Source: a virus
Taxonomy: Duplodnaviria > Heunggongvirae > Uroviricota > Caudoviricetes
Virus record (IMG/VR): IMGVR_UViG_2778261244_000001
Direction: 5' to 3' (one strand)
Length of the DNA: 5,396 nt
Positions 27 through 5,247 of the stretch are shown here, piece by piece. The position numbers and the translations under genes were made by a program. The notes beneath the pieces are model-generated. The model ran no database searches, was not told the DNA's origin, and saw only the letters and a program-made list of their open reading frames with translations. Each line of letters begins with the position of its first letter. The stretch's first letter is position 1.

Positions 27-1385
27 TCACTTATTTAAGTGATACTGGTTGTCTGGAGATTCAGGGGGCCAGTCTACCGTGTATGTGCCATTTTTTCGGG
101 CAAAATATTCTTCTTTTGTGATTTCAGTGGCGCCAGCAGCCAGTGCCTTATCCAGACCAGAGAGTTTGTTTGCGCGACCGTATTTTTCTCCGTCCTTATC
201 TGCGAAGAGGAAATAGAACGGCCCCTCACGCTCTACAGATGGTTCAGCTTCCGGCGCGGTTTCATTTTTTGGGATATCAGATACCTCAGTTTCCACTGCA
301 TCAGTTTGTGTTTCTGATGACTGGAGAACATCAACAGTGCCCAGGTCTGTTTCTTCATTCTCAAACACGCCCTTTGTCGTCAGGTATTCGCAGATATATT
401 TGTTCAGTGCTACGGGATCTTTGTGAATGTCGATCGGACGCTCACGGACAAGGCCAAAAATAGTTTGGCGGTCGTAGCGAAGGGCATCAGGCTGTTTGCG
501 CATTGATGCCGAGATACGCTTCCAGTCTTCGCGGTCGTTGTCGATAACTTCTTTTTTTGCCCAGCGATGGATGCTGCCGTCAATGTTTCCGGCATCCACA
601 TCACTAGGCCAGAGAGCGTAGGCCAGTTCGTCATCCAGTGTTTTCCATGTCTGCTTGTATTCGCGATGAATGGCAGCAATGACCGGGCTGATTTTTCCTG
701 TTGAATTTTCAGTGTACTGTTGATTGGCTCTGGCGCGGGCGAGATCAACAACAGACGTGTATTTTCCGGTTTCCTTGCGTTCACCTTCGCGACGTTTTTT
801 CCAGATGCGCATCTCTGCCTGAATTTCGGGCCATTTAGCACCAGGAATACATTTATGCTTAACCCACCCAATGGCGTGCAACTTAAGCTCCGGATACATG
901 GCGTTAACTTCTGGCATTTTCATCAACGCTTCAACGATATGTCCGTCGAATGTTGCCATGTCTTCCTGCAACAATTCCTGTGCGCTAATAACCATATCAA
1001 CGGTGATGTTTTCACATGTGTCGAACTTAACCATGACAGCGTTCTGTACTTCAGGGGCCAGCTTGTCAAAAGTGACGTTCATCGGATCGGATTCAGTCTC
1101 AACCGGGACAAAAGAAGCAGACTCCTCATCCCAGCGGTTTTCCTGCATATATTCAGCATCCCATGAATCGAGGGCAGGGCGGGGTATGCCAGGTTTATCC
1201 TCGCAGACAATAAATTTATAAGCGCAGTCCTGAGCAGCCGGATAATGTTCCAGGAATTGCCAGTGAAATTTTGCTCGAGCACGGCGTTCGTCGCCAGCTT
1301 CAATGGCTGTGGCTACAGCCACAGCGCCTTCTTCCCTTGTTGCCAGTTCGTCAGGAATAGCGGCGCAAATAAAGACTTTACTCAT
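27..1385 (-). CDS. Hypothetical protein, 452 aa, strongly acidic C-terminal third; family not recognised
   Basis: Long uninterrupted ORF (track 27..1421, TTG at 1419-1421). Preferred start is ATG at 1383-1385 (MSKVFICAAIP...), preceded in mRNA sense by GAGG about 9 nt upstream. Stop TGA at 27-29. No ATPase, nuclease or methyltransferase motif recognised by eye. Confidence 0.8.
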   Translation of the reverse strand: MSKVFICAAIPDELATREEGAVAVATAIEAGDERRARAKFHWQFLEHYPAAQDCAYKFIVCEDKPGIPRPALDSWDAEYMQENRWDEESASFVPVETESDPMNVTFDKLAPEVQNAVMVKFDTCENITVDMVISAQELLQEDMATFDGHIVEALMKMPEVNAMYPELKLHAIGWVKHKCIPGAKWPEIQAEMRIWKKRREGERKETGKYTSVVDLARARANQQYTENSTGKISPVIAAIHREYKQTWKTLDDELAYALWPSDVDAGNIDGSIHRWAKKEVIDNDREDWKRISASMRKQPDALRYDRQTIFGLVRERPIDIHKDPVALNKYICEYLTTKGVFENEETDLGTVDVLQSSETQTDAVETEVSDIPKNETAPEAEPSVEREGPFYFLFADKDGEKYGRANKLSGLDKALAAGATEITKEEYFARKNGTYTVDWPPESPDNQYHLNK

Positions 1386-1933: not shown

Positions 1934-1937
1934 GGAT

Positions 1938-2267
1938 ATGTGCTGTGGCAGCCGCATGTTCTGGTTCGATAAGTCTGACGAACGGGCGATATTCAGCGAT
2001 ATCAGAAAAGAAGGATACACATTACGCAATGGGAGACGCTTGATTATCAGCCCTGACATTATCGCAGATTTTCGTGCATTATCATTTGCAGACGCATCTT
2101 TTTCGATGGTTGTATTAGACCCTCCGCATCTTGAGAGTGTTGGTGATAACGCCTGGATGGGAAAGAAATATGGACGGCTGAATAAAGATGCCTGGCGTGA
2201 TGATTCGCGACAGAGATTTAAAGAAGCCTTTCGGGTGTTGAGGCCGCACGGCGTTCTGATTTTTTAA
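1938..2267 (+). pseudogene. DNA (N6-adenine/N4-cytosine-type) methyltransferase-like fragment, 109 codons, DPPH motif; probably truncated
   Basis: Translation contains ...ADASFSMVVLDPPHLESVG... (D-P-P-H at nt 2118-2129), resembling motif IV (hydrophobic run + DPP[YFW]) of amino-methyltransferases, then ...RVLRPHGVLIF. Frame ends at TAA 2265-2267 but stays open for 29 more codons (WNETQIPVSQILAL...) to TAA 2355-2357. Too short for a full enzyme; no motif I (FxGxG) seen. Confidence 0.4.
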
Positions 2268-2426: not shown

Positions 2427-2444
2427 CTGAATAATTAAATTCAG
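2427..2444. promoter_or_regulatory. Inverted repeat CTGAAT-N6-ATTCAG in an AT-rich intergenic stretch; candidate operator
   Basis: Perfect 6-bp arms at 2427-2432 and 2439-2444, about 85 bp upstream of the ORF at 2530. No clear sigma70 -35/-10 pair could be assigned. Confidence 0.2.
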
Positions 2445-2500
2445 TTCTGTAAATAAAATTTAATCCTTAACCGGATGGATTTCTGCACCCTCAGAACATC

Positions 2501-2532
2501 AGGAGGCCGCCCGAAAGGGCGGTAGTGAAATG
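2501..2532 (+). promoter_or_regulatory. Structured translation-initiation region: AGGAGG, then a 6-bp all-GC stem with GAAA loop, then ATG
   Basis: AGGAGG 2501-2506; stem CCGCCC 2507-2512 / GGGCGG 2517-2522 with GAAA loop; ATG at 2530. Linear SD-ATG spacing is about 23 nt, but about 7 nt if the hairpin forms. No U-tract follows, so not an intrinsic terminator. Confidence 0.3.
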
Positions 2533-2640
2533 CGAAAGTTCAAAATTATTATTGAAACGGGAATAGCTGGTGGAGATTTTGAGGATGTATTCGAAGTGGA
2601 CGATGACGCAACACCTGAGGAAATTCATGACGGAGCATAA
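2530..2640 (+). CDS. Small acidic ORF, 36 aa (MRKFKIIIETGIAGGDFEDVFEVDDDATPEEIHDGA)
   Basis: ATG 2530, TAA 2638-2640, preceded by the SD-hairpin arrangement. Too short for compositional support; may be a remnant. Confidence 0.3.
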   Translation: MRKFKIIIETGIAGGDFEDVFEVDDDATPEEIHDGA

Positions 2641-2881
2641 GAAATTTTCTTTAACTACTGCAATTACTCATACCACGAAATAAAAGACGATGAGGAAGAA
2701 CAAAGTGGCTGATTTTTGTTCAGCTAAATATAACATCAGTTTTGAAGAGCGGGATGAACTATTAATGGACTATGGTGAGTTACGCGGTGGAAGTGCTGCT
2801 GATGTCGAATCCTAGCGTGATGACTATGAAGCGGGAAAAACTCCGGTCGAAGCATATTGTGATGAGTGGGGCGATGAATGA
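2627..2881 (+). pseudogene. Small ORF interrupted by in-frame TAA (2681-2683) and TAG (2813-2815); reading frame otherwise continuous to TGA
   Basis: ATG 2627 preceded by GAGG with 6-nt spacing. Frame reads MTEHKKFSLTTAITHTTK-TAA-KTMRKNKVADFCSAKYNISFEERDELLMDYGELRGGSAADVES-TAG-RDDYEAGKTPVEAYCDEWGDE-TGA. The last 21 codons have no start codon of their own and end in an ATGA overlap with the next gene. Confidence 0.35.
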
Positions 2882-3165
2882 GCGAGATTAATTATCAGGA
2901 AGGGCATGAAACGGCGGGGCAAGCAAAACCAGTGGCATGGCGATATCGCTACGTGAAAAAAGGCGTTACGGACTTTCAGGGGAAGTAGTGGTCTGGTGAC
3001 TGGAAATATGTACCGAAAAAAGAGGATTGTAACGACAGGCCGAACTATCAAATTCAGGCCTTATTCACTGCCTCACCAGTCCCAGTTACATCAGAAGAAC
3101 TGGTTAAAGCTGTGCACTTTTATGAACAACTAAAACGCGAAAATCCACCAACATCCGGCAACTAG
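2878..3165 (+). pseudogene. Small phage-like ORF interrupted by one in-frame amber codon (TAG 2986-2988); 36 aa + stop + 58 aa in one frame
   Basis: ATG 2878 with purine-rich GGGG 6 nt upstream, and ATGA overlap with the upstream frame. Translation MSEINYQEGHETAGQAKPVAWRYRYVKKGVTDFQGK-TAG-WSGDWKYVPKKEDCNDRPNYQIQALFTASPVPVTSEELVKAVHFYEQLKRENPPTSGN-TAG. The downstream part is protein-like; the antisense ORF looks like junk. Confidence 0.45.
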
Positions 3166-3419
3166 ATTAATGGATTAACTATGTCGGTTAAACGACCAGC
3201 CAACTGAAAAAGCGGAAACCTGATTACAGGTTGCCAGATAAGGCAATGAGCTACCTGGCGCGGAACGGACTGATAAGTATGGGGAATGTTTTACGATGAA
3301 CCTTTAGACTAAAGAGTTTGTAACGCTATGTAAGTGATTTTTTCTGGTTTAGATATTTATATGTCCGGCCAAATTGAGGTGTGTTTAAATGTAATTGCAC
3401 ATTGATTGTAGGAGGAATA

Positions 3420-3599
3420 ATGAAAAACGCATTGCAGTTTTTGTTTGTTGCGTTCTGGTTGTTCGCATCATGTATGCCCATCATCTTCACAGCAAGGTAT
3501 ATGGAAAAAGTTGATGTTTTGATATTAATATTTGGATATATAAATGCCCTTTTTTTAGGGGTGTTCATGGCGGTCATGTGCATTGAATACTGGCGGTAA
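3420..3599 (+). CDS. Small hydrophobic protein, 59 aa, two predicted transmembrane helices
   Basis: Strong RBS AGGAGG (3410-3415) 4 nt before ATG 3420; stop TAA 3597-3599. Two hydrophobic segments (ALQFLFVAFWLFASCMPIIF and VLILIFGYINALFLGVFMAVMCI) separated by a short charged loop (TARYMEKVD). Gene is visibly AT-rich compared with its flanks. Confidence 0.55.
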   Translation: MKNALQFLFVAFWLFASCMPIIFTARYMEKVDVLILIFGYINALFLGVFMAVMCIEYWR

Positions 3600-3829
3600 A
3601 TACAGCGAACTCCATTGGTTTAGTTGGATATTTACTGTGCTGGACAAAAACGGTTTGCGGGGAAATCTTAGTTAAGTAGAATGACTGCGGGTGCTTGAGG
3701 CTATCTGCCTCGGGCATGGACACCAACGGCAGATAGAGAAAAGCCCCAGTTAACATTACGCGTCCTGCAAGACGCTTAACATTAATCTGAGGCCAATTTC
3801 ATGCTAGACACATGTAGGTTAGCCTCTTA

Positions 3830-3845
3830 CGTGCCGAAAGGCACG
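3830..3845. other. Stable hairpin CGTGCC-GAAA-GGCACG (GNRA-type tetraloop), not followed by a T-tract
   Basis: Perfect 6-bp stem with GAAA loop, about 90 bp upstream of the transposase start. Same architecture as the hairpin at 2507-2522. Confidence 0.3.
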
Positions 3846-3904
3846 GAGAAGCAGGCTATTGTTAACACCAAGCTGTAATGTCCCCTTTGAACCATTCTAA
3901 AATG

Positions 3905-3936
3905 TCCCCAGACAATTCTCTGGGGGATTTTTCATG
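3905..3936 (+). promoter_or_regulatory. Hairpin that places the transposase Shine-Dalgarno (GGGGGA) in its 3' arm
   Basis: TCCCCA 3905-3910 pairs with TGGGGG 3921-3926 (5 Watson-Crick pairs plus one G-U), 10-nt loop; ATG at 3934 lies 7 nt after the stem. RBS occlusion is a known way IS elements limit transposase translation. Confidence 0.35.
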
Positions 3937-5247
3937 ATCAAAGAGACTGTTACGATGAGTCATAAGGAACTCCACCGACTTCAGATTATTCAGGAACAAG
4001 CTGCGGCACGCATTGGCATTTCTATTCGGCAGGTTAAACGTCTGGTGCAACGGTATAGAAATGAAGGGCCTTCTGGTCTGGTTTCCCACCGACGTGGAAA
4101 GCGTCCTAATAATTCCTTTTCTACTGAATTCAGAGCAACAGTAATTTCACTCCTCAAAGGCCGTTACGCTGATTTTGGACCTACGTTTGCGTGCGAAAAA
4201 TTGCGCGAGATACACGGTTTATCTTTATCCGTTGAAACTCTCAGAAAGTGGATGATAGAAGTGGGGTTATGGCGTGAACGCCGTCGTAAAATTGCCCGTA
4301 TATATCAACGCCGCATGCGACGACCATCTTACGGTGAACTGATCCAGATTGATGGCTCACCTCATGACTGGTTTGAAAATCGAGGCCCCAGATGTACACT
4401 GATCGTTTTCATTGATGATGCCACCAGTGCGTTGATGGCGTTGCGTTTTGTGCCTGCTGAAACAACCCGGGCTTACATGGAAACCCTCCGGGGTTACCTT
4501 AATGATCATGGCGTACCGCTCGCTCTCTACTCTGATAGACACAGTATATTCAGGGTAAATAACCCAGAGCGGGAAGGTGAGCTGACCCAGTTCACTCGTG
4601 CGATAAAGACACTGGGCATCGAGCCAATCCATGCCAACAGCCCGCAGGCAAAAGGGCGGGTAGAGCGCGCCAATCAGACACTACAGGACAGGCTGGTCAA
4701 AGAAATGCGGCTTCAGAATATCAGTGATATTGAAACAGCAAATGCATGGTTGCCGACCTTTATTGAAGCCTATAACAACCGGTTCGCTACGTCGCCTCGT
4801 ACTACTGATAATGCTCATCTTGATGTGCACCATTCTGAAGAGGAACTGGGTTATATCTTCAGCCTACAGGCGAAGCGCGTTCTGTCTAAAAATCTCACTT
4901 TCCAGTACAAAAGCAGTGCGTTTCAGGTACGCAGTGAGGGCCGGGGATATCGACTTAGGCATTCGGTTGTTACTGTATGCGAGAACTTTGACGGTGAAAT
5001 TAACGTTCTGTATGACGGGAAAGCGCTGGGCTGGGAAAAGTATGTTGATGGCCCGGAGCCTATACCACTGGATGATGAAAAGAGTGTCCATGAACGAGTG
5101 GATAATGCCCGTATTGATTTACGCTCAAAATACTATGTTAAACCTAAAGCTGACCATCCCTGGCTTACGCGCCGAACGCAAAGTCATCAGCAAGTTAAGC
5201 CCCCGAAGTTACCTAAAAAGAAGCCTGATCCCGATAAAAAAGATTGA
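3934..5247 (+). CDS. DDE transposase (rve/integrase-core fold), ISNCY (IS1202-group) / IS481-like, 437 aa
   Basis: Intact 1314-nt ORF. N-terminal helix-turn-helix-like region (AAARIGISIRQVKRLVQRYRNEGPSGLVSHRRGKRP). Candidate catalytic residues in IQIDGSPHDW / VFIDDATS, LALYSDRHSIF, and GRVERANQTLQDRL (the G-x-V-E-R-x-N signature of retroviral-integrase-type transposases). Basic C-terminal tail. The ATG at 3955 (MSHKELHRLQII...) is an alternative start. Confidence 0.9.
   Translation: MIKETVTMSHKELHRLQIIQEQAAARIGISIRQVKRLVQRYRNEGPSGLVSHRRGKRPNNSFSTEFRATVISLLKGRYADFGPTFACEKLREIHGLSLSVETLRKWMIEVGLWRERRRKIARIYQRRMRRPSYGELIQIDGSPHDWFENRGPRCTLIVFIDDATSALMALRFVPAETTRAYMETLRGYLNDHGVPLALYSDRHSIFRVNNPEREGELTQFTRAIKTLGIEPIHANSPQAKGRVERANQTLQDRLVKEMRLQNISDIETANAWLPTFIEAYNNRFATSPRTTDNAHLDVHHSEEELGYIFSLQAKRVLSKNLTFQYKSSAFQVRSEGRGYRLRHSVVTVCENFDGEINVLYDGKALGWEKYVDGPEPIPLDDEKSVHERVDNARIDLRSKYYVKPKADHPWLTRRTQSHQQVKPPKLPKKKPDPDKKD

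What the first reader, a model, noticed from the sequence alone, without database searches (positions are those of the whole stretch)
2501..2532. Shine-Dalgarno and start codon separated by a very stable GC hairpin
AGGAGG directly abuts a 6-bp all-GC stem with a GAAA loop, and the ATG follows 7 nt after the stem. Folding would bring the SD and AUG to normal spacing (the kind of arrangement described for phage T4 gene 38); unfolding would leave them too far apart. This could be a structure-dependent translational switch or an mRNA-stabilising element.
Basis: partly seen in the sequence, partly recalled or inferred. Interest (0 to 1): 0.4.

Follow-up and report, generated by a model that had tools for sequence, protein, structure and literature searches.

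The report
Portable split ribosome-binding-site hairpin cassette
The strong Shine-Dalgarno, GC hairpin and ATG are real. They form a ~26-nt cassette that E. coli lambdoid prophages reuse in front of at least four unrelated small genes, most likely a constitutively folded "split" ribosome-binding site of the phage T4 gene 38/25 type; the copy in this window sits before a dead gene in a decayed prophage.

Summary
Observation confirmed: AGGAGG (2501-2506), CCGCCC-GAAA-GGGCGG (2507-2522), 7-nt spacer, ATG (2530). It is the most stable local hairpin in the window (-15.5 kcal/mol) and folds with probability about 1.0 in context.

The ATG is the family-conserved start of a 60-codon DUF7167 gene. The gene lies in a Qin/Rac-like prophage. 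In this window it is a pseudogene (in-frame TAA at 2638-2640), and its PR promoter region has been deleted.

- The core TC-RGGAGG-CCGCCYGAAAGGGCGG-TA also precedes three other gene families. The start codon always lies 6-9 nt after the stem (122/122 contexts).
- Two left flanks and four right flanks occur in 7 of 8 combinations.
- The leader plus hairpin occurs in 2,620 of 5,426 complete E. coli genomes.
- Homologs of two of the families that lack the hairpin carry their SD 4-7 nt from the start.

The hairpin therefore behaves as a looped-out 16-nt insert, a split translation-initiation region as in T4 genes 38 and 25. It also marks mosaic junctions.

No evidence supports a switch: the fold is constitutive and has no conserved competitor. 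Covariation is statistically weak. An asymmetry (C-to-U tolerated in the 5' arm, G-to-A rare in the 3' arm) points to constraint at the RNA level on the + strand. A new member of a known kind; moderate interest.

The parts
2427..2500 (+). 'Leader A': conserved AT-rich untranslated intergenic leader that travels with the cassette in most copies. Homology to other phages starts at 2427 or 2458.
   Evidence: BLAST homology boundaries at query 128 and 159. The same leader lies upstream of four different gene families. No sigma-70-like promoter or terminator was found in it.
2474..2492 (+). Small upstream stem GAGGG...CCCTC of leader A. It is weakened here by G->T (GATGG), which also creates a non-conserved ATG at 2475.
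   Evidence: 97.5% of cells paired but no covariation. The ATG is absent (AGG) in most relatives, so the 16-codon uORF 2475-2525 is not conserved.
2501..2506 (+). Shine-Dalgarno AGGAGG, directly abutting the stem.
   Evidence: Minor-allele frequency 0.022, as low as codon positions 1-2. All variants (GGGAGG, AGGAGA, AGGGGG, CGGAGG) keep at least 4 nt of anti-SD complementarity.
2507..2522 (+). Hairpin CCGCCC-GAAA-GGGCGG (6 bp; 7 bp with G2506.U2523).
   Evidence: 81 of 107 gene-anchored distinct contexts keep all six pairs (Watson-Crick or G.U); one G-C->A-U double change is seen.
2523..2529 (+). 7-nt spacer TAGTGAA between the stem base and the start codon.
   Evidence: Spacer is 7 nt in 63 of 64 distinct cassette contexts of the main DUF7167 (MRKFK) group; it is 6 nt for DUF4014 and 8-9 nt for the other two families.
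2530..2712 (+). DUF7167 gene (60 codons), inactivated here by an in-frame TAA at 2638-2640 (AAA in relatives).
   Evidence: Translation. Pfam PF23768 E=8e-15 on the intact homolog, with the profile starting at residue 2. PHROG 1997 aligns 1-57/57. PGAP annotates 'DUF7167 family protein, internal stop'.

Best explanation
The element is a constitutive split translation-initiation region. A strong SD (AGGAGG) and the start codon are separated by a 16-nt GC hairpin that folds autonomously and is looped out. The 30S subunit then sees the SD about 6-9 nt from the AUG.

The SD+hairpin (core TC-RGGAGG-CCGCCYGAAAGGGCGG-TA, about 26 nt) is a portable cassette. In E. coli lambdoid (pro)phages it supplies the ribosome-binding site for at least four unrelated accessory genes in the ea/nin-type regions, and it coincides with mosaic junctions.

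Shown: the sequence anatomy, the predicted stability, the conservation, the recurrence, the fixed stem-to-start distance, and the canonical SD spacing in hairpin-less homologs.

Inferred: that ribosomes actually use this SD with the hairpin folded.

In this window the copy is probably a relic, because the downstream gene has a nonsense codon and the PR region is deleted.
For: - Anatomy and stability. The stem forms with p=1.0 (0.83 for a wobble variant) in four natural contexts.
- True start: the ATG at 2530 is the family-conserved start. Pfam and PHROG profiles begin at residue 1-2, and distant homologs all begin MRKFK. The 87-aa N-extended ORFs start at a GTG with no SD in only some leader variants.
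- Fixed distance: in 122 of 122 distinct cassette contexts a start codon lies 6-9 nt after the stem. The four families are DUF7167, DUF4014/phrog_1832, phrog_660-like M(T/A)ELTKE and phrog_26213-like MQEIKEN.
- Hairpin-less DUF7167 homologs: Klebsiella phage GGAGG-7 nt-ATG; L091 GGGGGAG-6-ATG; L107 GGAGA-AACATA-ATG.
- Hairpin-less DUF4014 homologs: 933W GGAG-6-GTG; epsilon15 and ES18 GGGGGAG-4-ATG.
- Constraint: the SD and the 3' arm are as conserved as codon positions 1-2 (0.022 and 0.024 against 0.017-0.023; third positions 0.110). Variation in the 5' arm is mostly C->U, which keeps G.U pairs (21 contexts), whereas G->A in the 3' arm is rare (5 contexts). This asymmetry is expected for + strand RNA pairing, not for a DNA palindrome.
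- The loop varies while the stem is kept.
- Precedent: T4 genes 38 and 25 (PMC3014915).
Against: - There is no experimental evidence of translation for any copy.
- Covariation is not statistically supported. 94.8% of cells are paired against 94.5% in shuffles (168 of 500 shuffles as high). Only one pair shows a double change, in 2 distinct sequences. An A.C mismatch at that same pair is commoner (8 of 41 distinct sequences).
- All copies are closely related, so conservation could partly reflect recent spread.
- Predicted SD and AUG accessibility is no better with the hairpin than without it, so no benefit to translation is demonstrated.
- The A-rich spacers could support some SD-independent initiation.
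- In this window the gene is a pseudogene without its native promoter.
Confidence: 0.6

Rival explanations
1. Recombination linker ('boundary sequence'). The ~26-nt core is kept mainly because it is the short homology at which accessory-gene modules are exchanged between lambdoid phages. The hairpin itself would contribute nothing to expression beyond being tolerated. This is largely compatible with the best explanation and may be the reason the cassette exists.
For: Two left flanks (a ~100-nt leader, or the 3' end of a gene ending ...SYHND*) and four right-flank gene families occur in 7 of 8 combinations, with identity breaking exactly at TC-RGGAGG...GGGCGG-TA. In ArgO145 two copies flank a three-gene module 1.1 kb apart. 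Some junctions fall inside the 5' arm (L029 type; the P0004 fusion). The leader plus hairpin occurs at up to 8 places per genome and in 48% of complete E. coli genomes. The boundary-sequence model is established in the literature (PMC3233612), as are T4 PeSL cassettes (PMC2839356).
Against: A pure DNA-homology role does not explain why the stem always sits exactly between an SD and a start codon at 6-9 nt. It also does not explain the 5'/3' arm asymmetry that favours G.U. Recombination between copies was inferred, not observed.
Confidence: 0.45
2. Intercistronic mRNA stability or processing element. The GC hairpin would block 3'->5' exonucleases (stabilising the upstream cistron) or define a processing site. 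Its position relative to SD and AUG would be secondary.
For: It is a very stable stem with a GNRA-type loop in most copies, placed between cistrons of long early operons. With left flank B it lies about 10 nt after the upstream stop codon.
Against: There is no U-tract or terminator features. It matches no Rfam family. A 3'-end barrier need not abut an SD with 0-nt spacing and a fixed 6-9 nt to the next start. A 5' stabiliser would leave the SD upstream of the protected end.
Confidence: 0.15
3. Regulatory switch or operator. Translation would be turned on or off by melting of the stem (temperature, or upstream ribosomes), or by a phage or host protein that binds the hairpin and co-regulates all cassette genes.
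For: The same hairpin in front of several genes of one phage would allow a regulon-like control. The stem resembles a boxB-like GNRA hairpin (from memory).
Against: dG is -12 to -15 kcal/mol and pairing probability is 1.0. No conserved alternative pairing exists; RNAalifold proposes only invariant 4-bp contacts, which are absent with left flank B. The loop is not conserved: GAAA, GGCA, GUCA, UAAA. The uORF that could melt the stem is not conserved. There is no boxA, and the position is wrong for a nut site.
Confidence: 0.08
4. DNA-level palindrome: a binding site for a dimeric protein, or a cruciform, acting on the DNA.
For: It is a perfect 6+6 inverted repeat, and the G-C->A-T double change also preserves a DNA palindrome.
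Against: The two arms evolve asymmetrically. 5'-arm C->T is common (21 contexts) and 3'-arm G->A is rare (5 contexts). These are equivalent for DNA symmetry but differ for + strand RNA pairing. The strict phasing with SD and AUG is unexplained.
Confidence: 0.05
5. Coincidence or annotation issue: the real start is upstream and the hairpin is simply coding sequence, or the arrangement has no significance.
For: Gene callers give 78-93-aa N-extended ORFs that read through the hairpin in some genomes. One cluster (P0003, 139 member sequences) has ATG->AGG at the canonical start.
Against: The window and most relatives have an in-frame TAA upstream and no upstream start. The extension starts at a GTG without an SD. 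Four unrelated families share the cassette. Profile models start at the proposed Met.
Confidence: 0.03

Closest known systems
Split translation-initiation regions of phage T4 genes 38 and 25 (Nivinskas et al. 1999; Malys & Nivinskas 2009; reviewed in PMC3014915)
   Same: The SD lies too far from the AUG in the linear sequence (T4: 22 and 27 nt; here 22-25 nt). An intervening stable hairpin reduces the spacing to a functional 5-11 nt (here 6-9). As for gene 25, close relatives have the hairpin, whereas more distant homologs lack it and use a contiguous RBS.
   Different: The host phages are temperate lambdoid rather than T-even, with no sequence relationship. Here one identical cassette serves at least four unrelated genes and coincides with mosaic junctions, whereas the T4 cases are gene-specific. 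Function here is untested; in T4 it was shown by mutagenesis, lacZ fusions and DMS probing.
PeSL (promoter-early stem-loop) cassettes of T4-type phages (Arbiol et al. 2010, PMC2839356)
   Same: Short, repeated regulatory cassettes containing a stem-loop lie between small accessory genes in hyperplastic regions. Genes flanked by them appear shuffled.
   Different: A PeSL is a strong sigma-70 promoter plus a terminator stem-loop. This cassette has no promoter-like or terminator-like features and instead carries an SD. Mini-circle formation was not tested here.
Conserved 'boundary/linker' sequences at gene junctions of lambdoid phages (model summarised in PMC3233612; Clark et al. 2001 on HK620, from memory)
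   Same: A short conserved sequence lies exactly at module and gene boundaries in the early (ea/nin) regions, with many left/right combinations.
   Different: This particular sequence, and the presence of a looped-out hairpin inside the RBS, were not found in the searched literature (0 papers contain the 16-mer). A second, hairpin-less boundary sequence was seen in Salmonella and Klebsiella phages.
Lambda boxB / nut hairpins
   Same: A short GC stem with a GNRA-like loop in an early phage transcript.
   Different: It has a tetraloop rather than a pentaloop, and the loop is not conserved. There is no boxA. It lies kilobases from PL/PR, directly inside an RBS. It is not a member.

Membership tests
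Split TIR (T4 gene 38/25 type) | An SD complementary to the 16S 3' end lies beyond functional linear distance (more than about 15 nt) from the start codon | tested here: met
   AGGAGG ends 23 nt before the A of ATG. The distance is 22-25 nt in the other cassette genes.
Split TIR (T4 gene 38/25 type) | The intervening sequence forms a stable local hairpin | tested here: met
   -12.4 to -15.5 kcal/mol, pairing probability 1.0, the strongest hairpin in the window. This is a prediction only.
Split TIR (T4 gene 38/25 type) | Folding brings SD-AUG spacing into the functional range (5-11 nt) | tested here: met
   6-9 nt remain after the stem in 122 of 122 contexts.
Split TIR (T4 gene 38/25 type) | No alternative SD at canonical spacing | tested here: met
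   The spacers TAGTGAA, TAAGAA and TAATGAAAA lack SD-like runs. The only SD-like run (GGCGGU) is the sequestered 3' arm.
Split TIR (T4 gene 38/25 type) | The structure is phylogenetically maintained (compensatory changes) | tested here: inconclusive
   One G-C->A-U double change and many G.U-preserving changes were seen, but the result is not better than the shuffle control (168 of 500) and A.C mismatches occur in 8 of 41 sequences. The arm asymmetry supports RNA-level constraint.
Split TIR (T4 gene 38/25 type) | Stem-disrupting mutations reduce translation and compensatory mutations restore it | not testable with these tools
   Requires reporter fusions or toeprinting.
PeSL-type mobile regulatory cassette | Contains a strong sigma-70 early promoter | tested here: not met
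   No promoter-like site in the leader or cassette in the window, L003 or ArgO145.
PeSL-type mobile regulatory cassette | The stem-loop acts as a transcription terminator | tested here: not met
   No U-tract after the stem on either strand, and no terminator-like hit at the cassette.
PeSL-type mobile regulatory cassette | Repeated between accessory ORFs, with evidence of modular shuffling | tested here: met
   7 of 8 left x right flank combinations; two copies flank a 3-gene module in ArgO145.
Lambdoid boundary/linker sequence | A short conserved sequence at the exact junction of otherwise unrelated modules | tested here: met
   Identity is confined to the ~26-nt core when flanks differ.
Lambdoid boundary/linker sequence | Recombination actually occurs at the sequence | not tested
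   Only inferred from flank combinations. Needs breakpoint statistics or experiments.
Rfam RNA families (any) | Match to a curated covariance model | tested here: not met
   No hit at 2400-2560 even at E<=1. The only significant hit in the window is sok at 3689-3860.

The most novel reading that the evidence does not exclude
The hairpin is a 'ribosome-invisible' extension of homology. Looping out 16 nt between SD and AUG lengthens the conserved junction from a bare SD (~6-8 nt) to ~26 nt, about the minimal length for efficient homologous recombination, without changing the effective RBS geometry. This would create a portable RBS-plus-recombination cassette that drives shuffling of small accessory genes among E. 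coli lambdoid prophages. It would be a lambdoid counterpart of T4 PeSLs, built on translation signals rather than transcription signals.
Probability: 0.3. Interest if true: 0.6.

Novelty: new member of a known kind. Interest (0 to 1): 0.4.

Why it matters
- Split ribosome-binding sites are known from only a few T-even phage genes. A cassette of the same design, present in about half of complete E. coli genomes and serving several gene families, would show that the solution is more common and is modular.
- It has practical consequences for annotation. Gene callers mis-start these genes, producing 78-93-aa extended ORFs that read through the hairpin, or leave them unannotated, because the SD looks mis-spaced.
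- It offers a concrete, testable example of a boundary sequence for the long-running question of how lambdoid mosaicism is targeted to gene borders.
- For this particular window it explains the feature as an inherited relic rather than an active local regulator.

Tried and rejected
- uORF or leader peptide (ATG 2475 to TAG 2523-2525): the ATG is a window-lineage G->T change and is AGG in most relatives. Rejected.
- Upstream in-frame start (87-aa ORF): it starts at a GTG with no SD in a subset of leader variants and is blocked by TAA in the window. Rejected as a caller artefact.
- Intrinsic terminator on either strand: no U-tract. Rejected.
- Promoter in leader A (PeSL analogy): none found.
- Known RNA family or prophage sRNA: no Rfam hit. 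The EHEC anti-sRNAs map downstream of PR', not here (PMC4104026).
- 'Insulator' idea (the hairpin keeps SD and AUG accessible whatever gene follows): the ensemble calculations show no consistent gain. Not supported.
- SD sequestration by the upstream UCCU or by the GAGGG/CCCTC stem: these are invariant short helices with no covariation and are absent with left flank B.
- A general SD-hairpin-AUG habit of these phages: a scan of 1.46 Mb of fetched loci found essentially only this one hairpin.
- Presence in the K-12 Rac prophage, which would have given experimental data: absent. The other K-12 prophages were not checked.
- Literature search for the 16-mer, DUF7167 and DUF4014: no papers.
- Covariation statistics: run, and not significant.

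Full report
**1. Observation**

The sequence reads caTCAGGAGG-CCGCCC-GAAA-GGGCGG-TAGTGAA-ATG. The coordinates are AGGAGG 2501-2506, stem-loop 2507-2522, spacer 2523-2529 and ATG 2530-2532.

RNAfold of 2490-2560 recovers the stem, extended by a G2506.U2523 pair. The MFE is -18.3 kcal/mol with z = -2.49, and 1 of 200 shuffles is as good. On its own the hairpin is -12.4 kcal/mol (6 bp) or -14.4 (7 bp).

Among all 10,752 20-nt windows of both strands it is the single most stable local fold. It scores -15.5 against a mean of -1.15 and sd of 1.72. The 16-mer is unique in the window even with two mismatches, with 0.00 expected. AGGAGG occurs only twice in the window.

**2. Genomic context**

The window is 100% identical to a defective Qin/Rac-like lambdoid prophage in E. 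coli 1303 and other strains. It is 99.9-100% identical, in two aligned blocks, to the intact phage PhiR42_1.

- On the - strand lie an exonuclease gene, ydfD and dicB.
- On the + strand lie a truncated SAM-methyltransferase gene, the ORF at 2530, further decayed ORFs, a hok/sok locus (Rfam sok, 104 bits) and an ISNCY transposase gene.

In PhiR42_1 the ORF lies in the rightward (PR) operon, downstream of cro-cII-O-lygF-methyltransferase. Relative to that phage the window carries a 3.84-kb deletion with its joint at 1935-1938. The deletion removes cI, cro, cII, O and lygF, and therefore PR.

The ORF is a 60-codon DUF7167 gene. Pfam PF23768 scores E=8e-15 on the intact homolog, and PHROG 1997 aligns over 1-57/57. 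In the window it has an in-frame TAA at 2638-2640 where relatives have AAA. PGAP annotates it as a pseudogene with an internal stop. The local copy is thus most likely an unexpressed relic, and the question becomes what the element does in intact relatives.

**3. Which start codon is real**

All family members, including relatives at 45-75% identity from Klebsiella and other hosts, begin MRKFK/MRTF. The profile models also start there.

Some database entries are 78-93 aa long because callers extended the ORF upstream through the hairpin. That extension begins at a GTG with no SD in one leader variant. It is closed by an in-frame TAA in the window and in most relatives.

A 16-codon uORF (ATG 2475 to TAG 2523) exists only because of a lineage-specific G->T change. 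Most relatives have AGG at that position.

**4. The hairpin is conserved, and it is a cassette**

I fetched about 450 related loci from IMG/VR, GTDB genomes, metagenomes and GenBank phages. DUF7167 genes at 74% amino-acid identity or more all carry the SD+hairpin.

The same core, TC-RGGAGG-CCGCCYGAAAGGGCGG-TA, also precedes three unrelated gene families:

- A 72-aa DUF4014 / phrog_1832 membrane-like protein, with a 6-nt spacer.
- A phrog_660-like protein starting M(T/A)ELTKE, with an 8-9 nt spacer and an ATG or GTG start.
- A phrog_26213-like protein starting MQEIKEN, with a 9-nt spacer.

In 122 of 122 distinct contexts a start codon follows the stem by 6-9 nt.

Two left flanks occur: a ~100-nt AT-rich leader, as in the window, and the 3' end of a gene ending ...SYHND*. 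With the four right flanks they give 7 of the 8 possible combinations. Identity breaks exactly at the edges of the ~26-nt core. In Stx phage ArgO145 two copies lie 1.1 kb apart, in the leftward ea region, flanking a three-gene module.

An 81-nt leader+hairpin query finds 4,724 places in 2,620 of 5,426 complete E. coli genomes, with up to 8 places per genome. It finds only 19 phage records, all of the E. coli lambdoid type. It is absent from K-12 Rac. A general scan of 1.46 Mb of these loci for any SD-GC hairpin-start arrangement returned essentially only this hairpin. It is therefore a specific element, not a general habit of these phages.

**5. Evidence that the hairpin is looped out of a functional RBS**

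Homologs that lack the hairpin carry their SD at canonical distance and are packed against the upstream gene.

- DUF7167: Klebsiella phage ST512-KPC3phi13.3 has GGAGG-CTGAGTG-ATG. L091 has GGGGGAG-TGAAAG-ATG. L107 has GGAGA-AACATA-ATG, which compares with AGGGGG-[hairpin]-TAACATA-ATG in L089.
- DUF4014: 933W L0067 and phage D6 have GGAG-AGTGAT-GTG. Epsilon15 and ES18 have GGGGGAG-TGA(A/G)-ATG.

In two independent families, removing the 16 nt from the cassette reproduces the spacing of the hairpin-less relatives. This is the arrangement documented for T4 gene 38 (22->5 nt) and gene 25 (27->11 nt). In those genes stem mutations lower translation, and only the close T-even phages have the split form (PMC3014915).

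**6. Constraint on the structure**

I built a hairpin-unbiased, gene-anchored set of 107 distinct contexts.

- 63 keep six Watson-Crick pairs and 18 more differ only by G.U pairs.
- Three carry the compensated CCACCC/GGGTGG form. Both single-step intermediates, A.C and G.U, also occur.
- The loop varies (GAAA, GGCA, GUCA, UAAA) while the stem persists.

Formal covariation is weak. 94.8% of cells are paired against 94.5% in column shuffles (168 of 500 shuffles as high). One pair has a double change, and A.C mismatches occur in 8 of 41 distinct sequences. The mismatched form is still predicted to fold, at -7.0 kcal/mol.

Site diversity is more informative. The SD (0.022) and the 3' arm (0.024) are as conserved as codon positions 1-2 (0.017-0.023). 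The 5' arm (0.076), leader (0.066) and spacer (0.071) approach third positions (0.110). The 5'-arm changes are mostly C->U, which keep G.U pairs (21 contexts). The mirror-image G->A changes in the 3' arm, which would give C.A, are rare (5 contexts). This asymmetry is what + strand RNA pairing predicts, and it is not what a DNA palindrome predicts. The contexts are phylogenetically non-independent, so I treat it as suggestive only.

**7. What it is not**

- It is not a terminator: there is no U-tract on either strand.
- It is not a promoter cassette.
- It matches no Rfam family.
- It is not an EHEC prophage anti-sRNA locus; those lie downstream of PR' (PMC4104026).
- It is not a switch. The stem forms with probability 1.0 in four natural contexts (0.83 for a wobble variant). 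No conserved competing helix exists. The upstream helices proposed by RNAalifold are invariant 4-5 bp contacts and are missing when the left flank is a coding sequence.
- Deleting or disrupting the stem in silico does not change predicted SD or AUG accessibility in a consistent direction. I therefore found no support for an 'insulator' benefit.

**8. Interpretation**

The best-supported reading (confidence about 0.6) is a constitutive split translation-initiation region packaged as a portable cassette.

The cassette's coincidence with mosaic junctions points to a second role as a boundary or linker sequence for module exchange (confidence about 0.45). This role is compatible with the first. 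The general model is summarised in PMC3233612. The nearest analogue in another phage group is the PeSL cassette (PMC2839356), from which this element differs in having neither a promoter nor a terminator.

A speculative synthesis is that the looped-out hairpin lengthens the junction homology to ~26 nt at no cost to RBS geometry.

An mRNA-stability role cannot be excluded (confidence about 0.15).

**9. Verdict**

- The T4-gene-38-like geometry is supported by comparative evidence.
- The 'switch' idea is not supported.
- The local copy is a relic in front of a pseudogene.
- Novelty: a new member of a known kind (split TIR), with an unreported modular distribution. I found no paper mentioning the sequence or either DUF.
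- Interest is moderate, 0.4.

Noticed in passing
window 1935-1938: Deletion joint. Relative to intact phage PhiR42_1 the window lacks 3.84 kb (ydfC/ydfB, cI, cro/dicC, cII, O, lygF and the 5' end of the methyltransferase gene). This joins the region just beyond dicB to a truncated SAM-methyltransferase ORF (1938-2267), with about 4 nt of overlap.
   Followed up: partly
window 2638-2640: In-frame TAA (AAA in relatives) truncates the DUF7167 gene to 36 codons. The same allele is annotated as a 36-aa CDS in phage PhiR42_1, and 36-aa clusters exist in the protein database (P0059, P0065).
   Followed up: partly
window 2705-2815: The next gene (58 aa in relatives, starting ATGGCTGA and overlapping the DUF7167 stop) has GTG instead of ATG here. 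It appears shortened. The ATG-started ORF at 2690 listed by the ORF tool is probably not the real start.
   Followed up: no
window 3689-3860 (+): Strong Rfam sok (hok/sok type I toxin-antitoxin) match: 104 bits against a gathering score of 59, E=1e-23. It lies just upstream of the ISNCY transposase gene (3934-5247).
   Followed up: no
window 1306-1325: A perfect 8-bp palindromic hairpin, GCTGTGGC-TACA-GCCACAGC (-14.0 kcal/mol), inside the exonuclease gene. It is the second most stable local fold in the window.
   Followed up: no
L004:2960-3000, L098, L091, L448:260-300, L449:260-300: A second, hairpin-less conserved junction, GCCGCTGGCATCAAGGT..GGAG..TGA-ATG, which encodes the ...AAGIKV.. C-terminus of Ead/Ea22-like genes. 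It precedes both DUF7167 and DUF4014 homologs in Klebsiella and Salmonella phages. It looks like a different boundary sequence doing the same job.
   Followed up: partly
L092:27-668; L229:3823-4188; L450:1-304: Free-standing HNH endonuclease genes sit immediately next to DUF7167 or DUF4014 genes in three unrelated phages. This could relate to the mobility of these small genes.
   Followed up: no
proteins P0002-P0009: Public annotations contain 78-93-aa versions of this 60-aa protein. Some are N-terminal extensions that read through the hairpin from a GTG with no SD; others are fusions or frameshifts at either end. One cluster (P0003, 139 member sequences) has the canonical ATG mutated to AGG.
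   Followed up: partly
PP818812.1 (H46/H113/H159); L085 (JAIHTM010000290.1): A record named 'Actinobacillus phage vB_Apl-pPE4' and a contig in a 'Collinsella sp.' MAG carry this E. coli lambdoid region at 92-97% identity. Both look like host mis-assignment or binning contamination.
   Followed up: no
L229 (ArgO145) 2500-3605: Two cassette copies flank a three-gene module (DUF7167, a 58-aa ORF and an Ead/Ea22-like gene) in the leftward ea region. In Rac/Qin-type phages the same DUF7167 module sits in the rightward nin-like region. The module has therefore moved between operons.
   Followed up: partly
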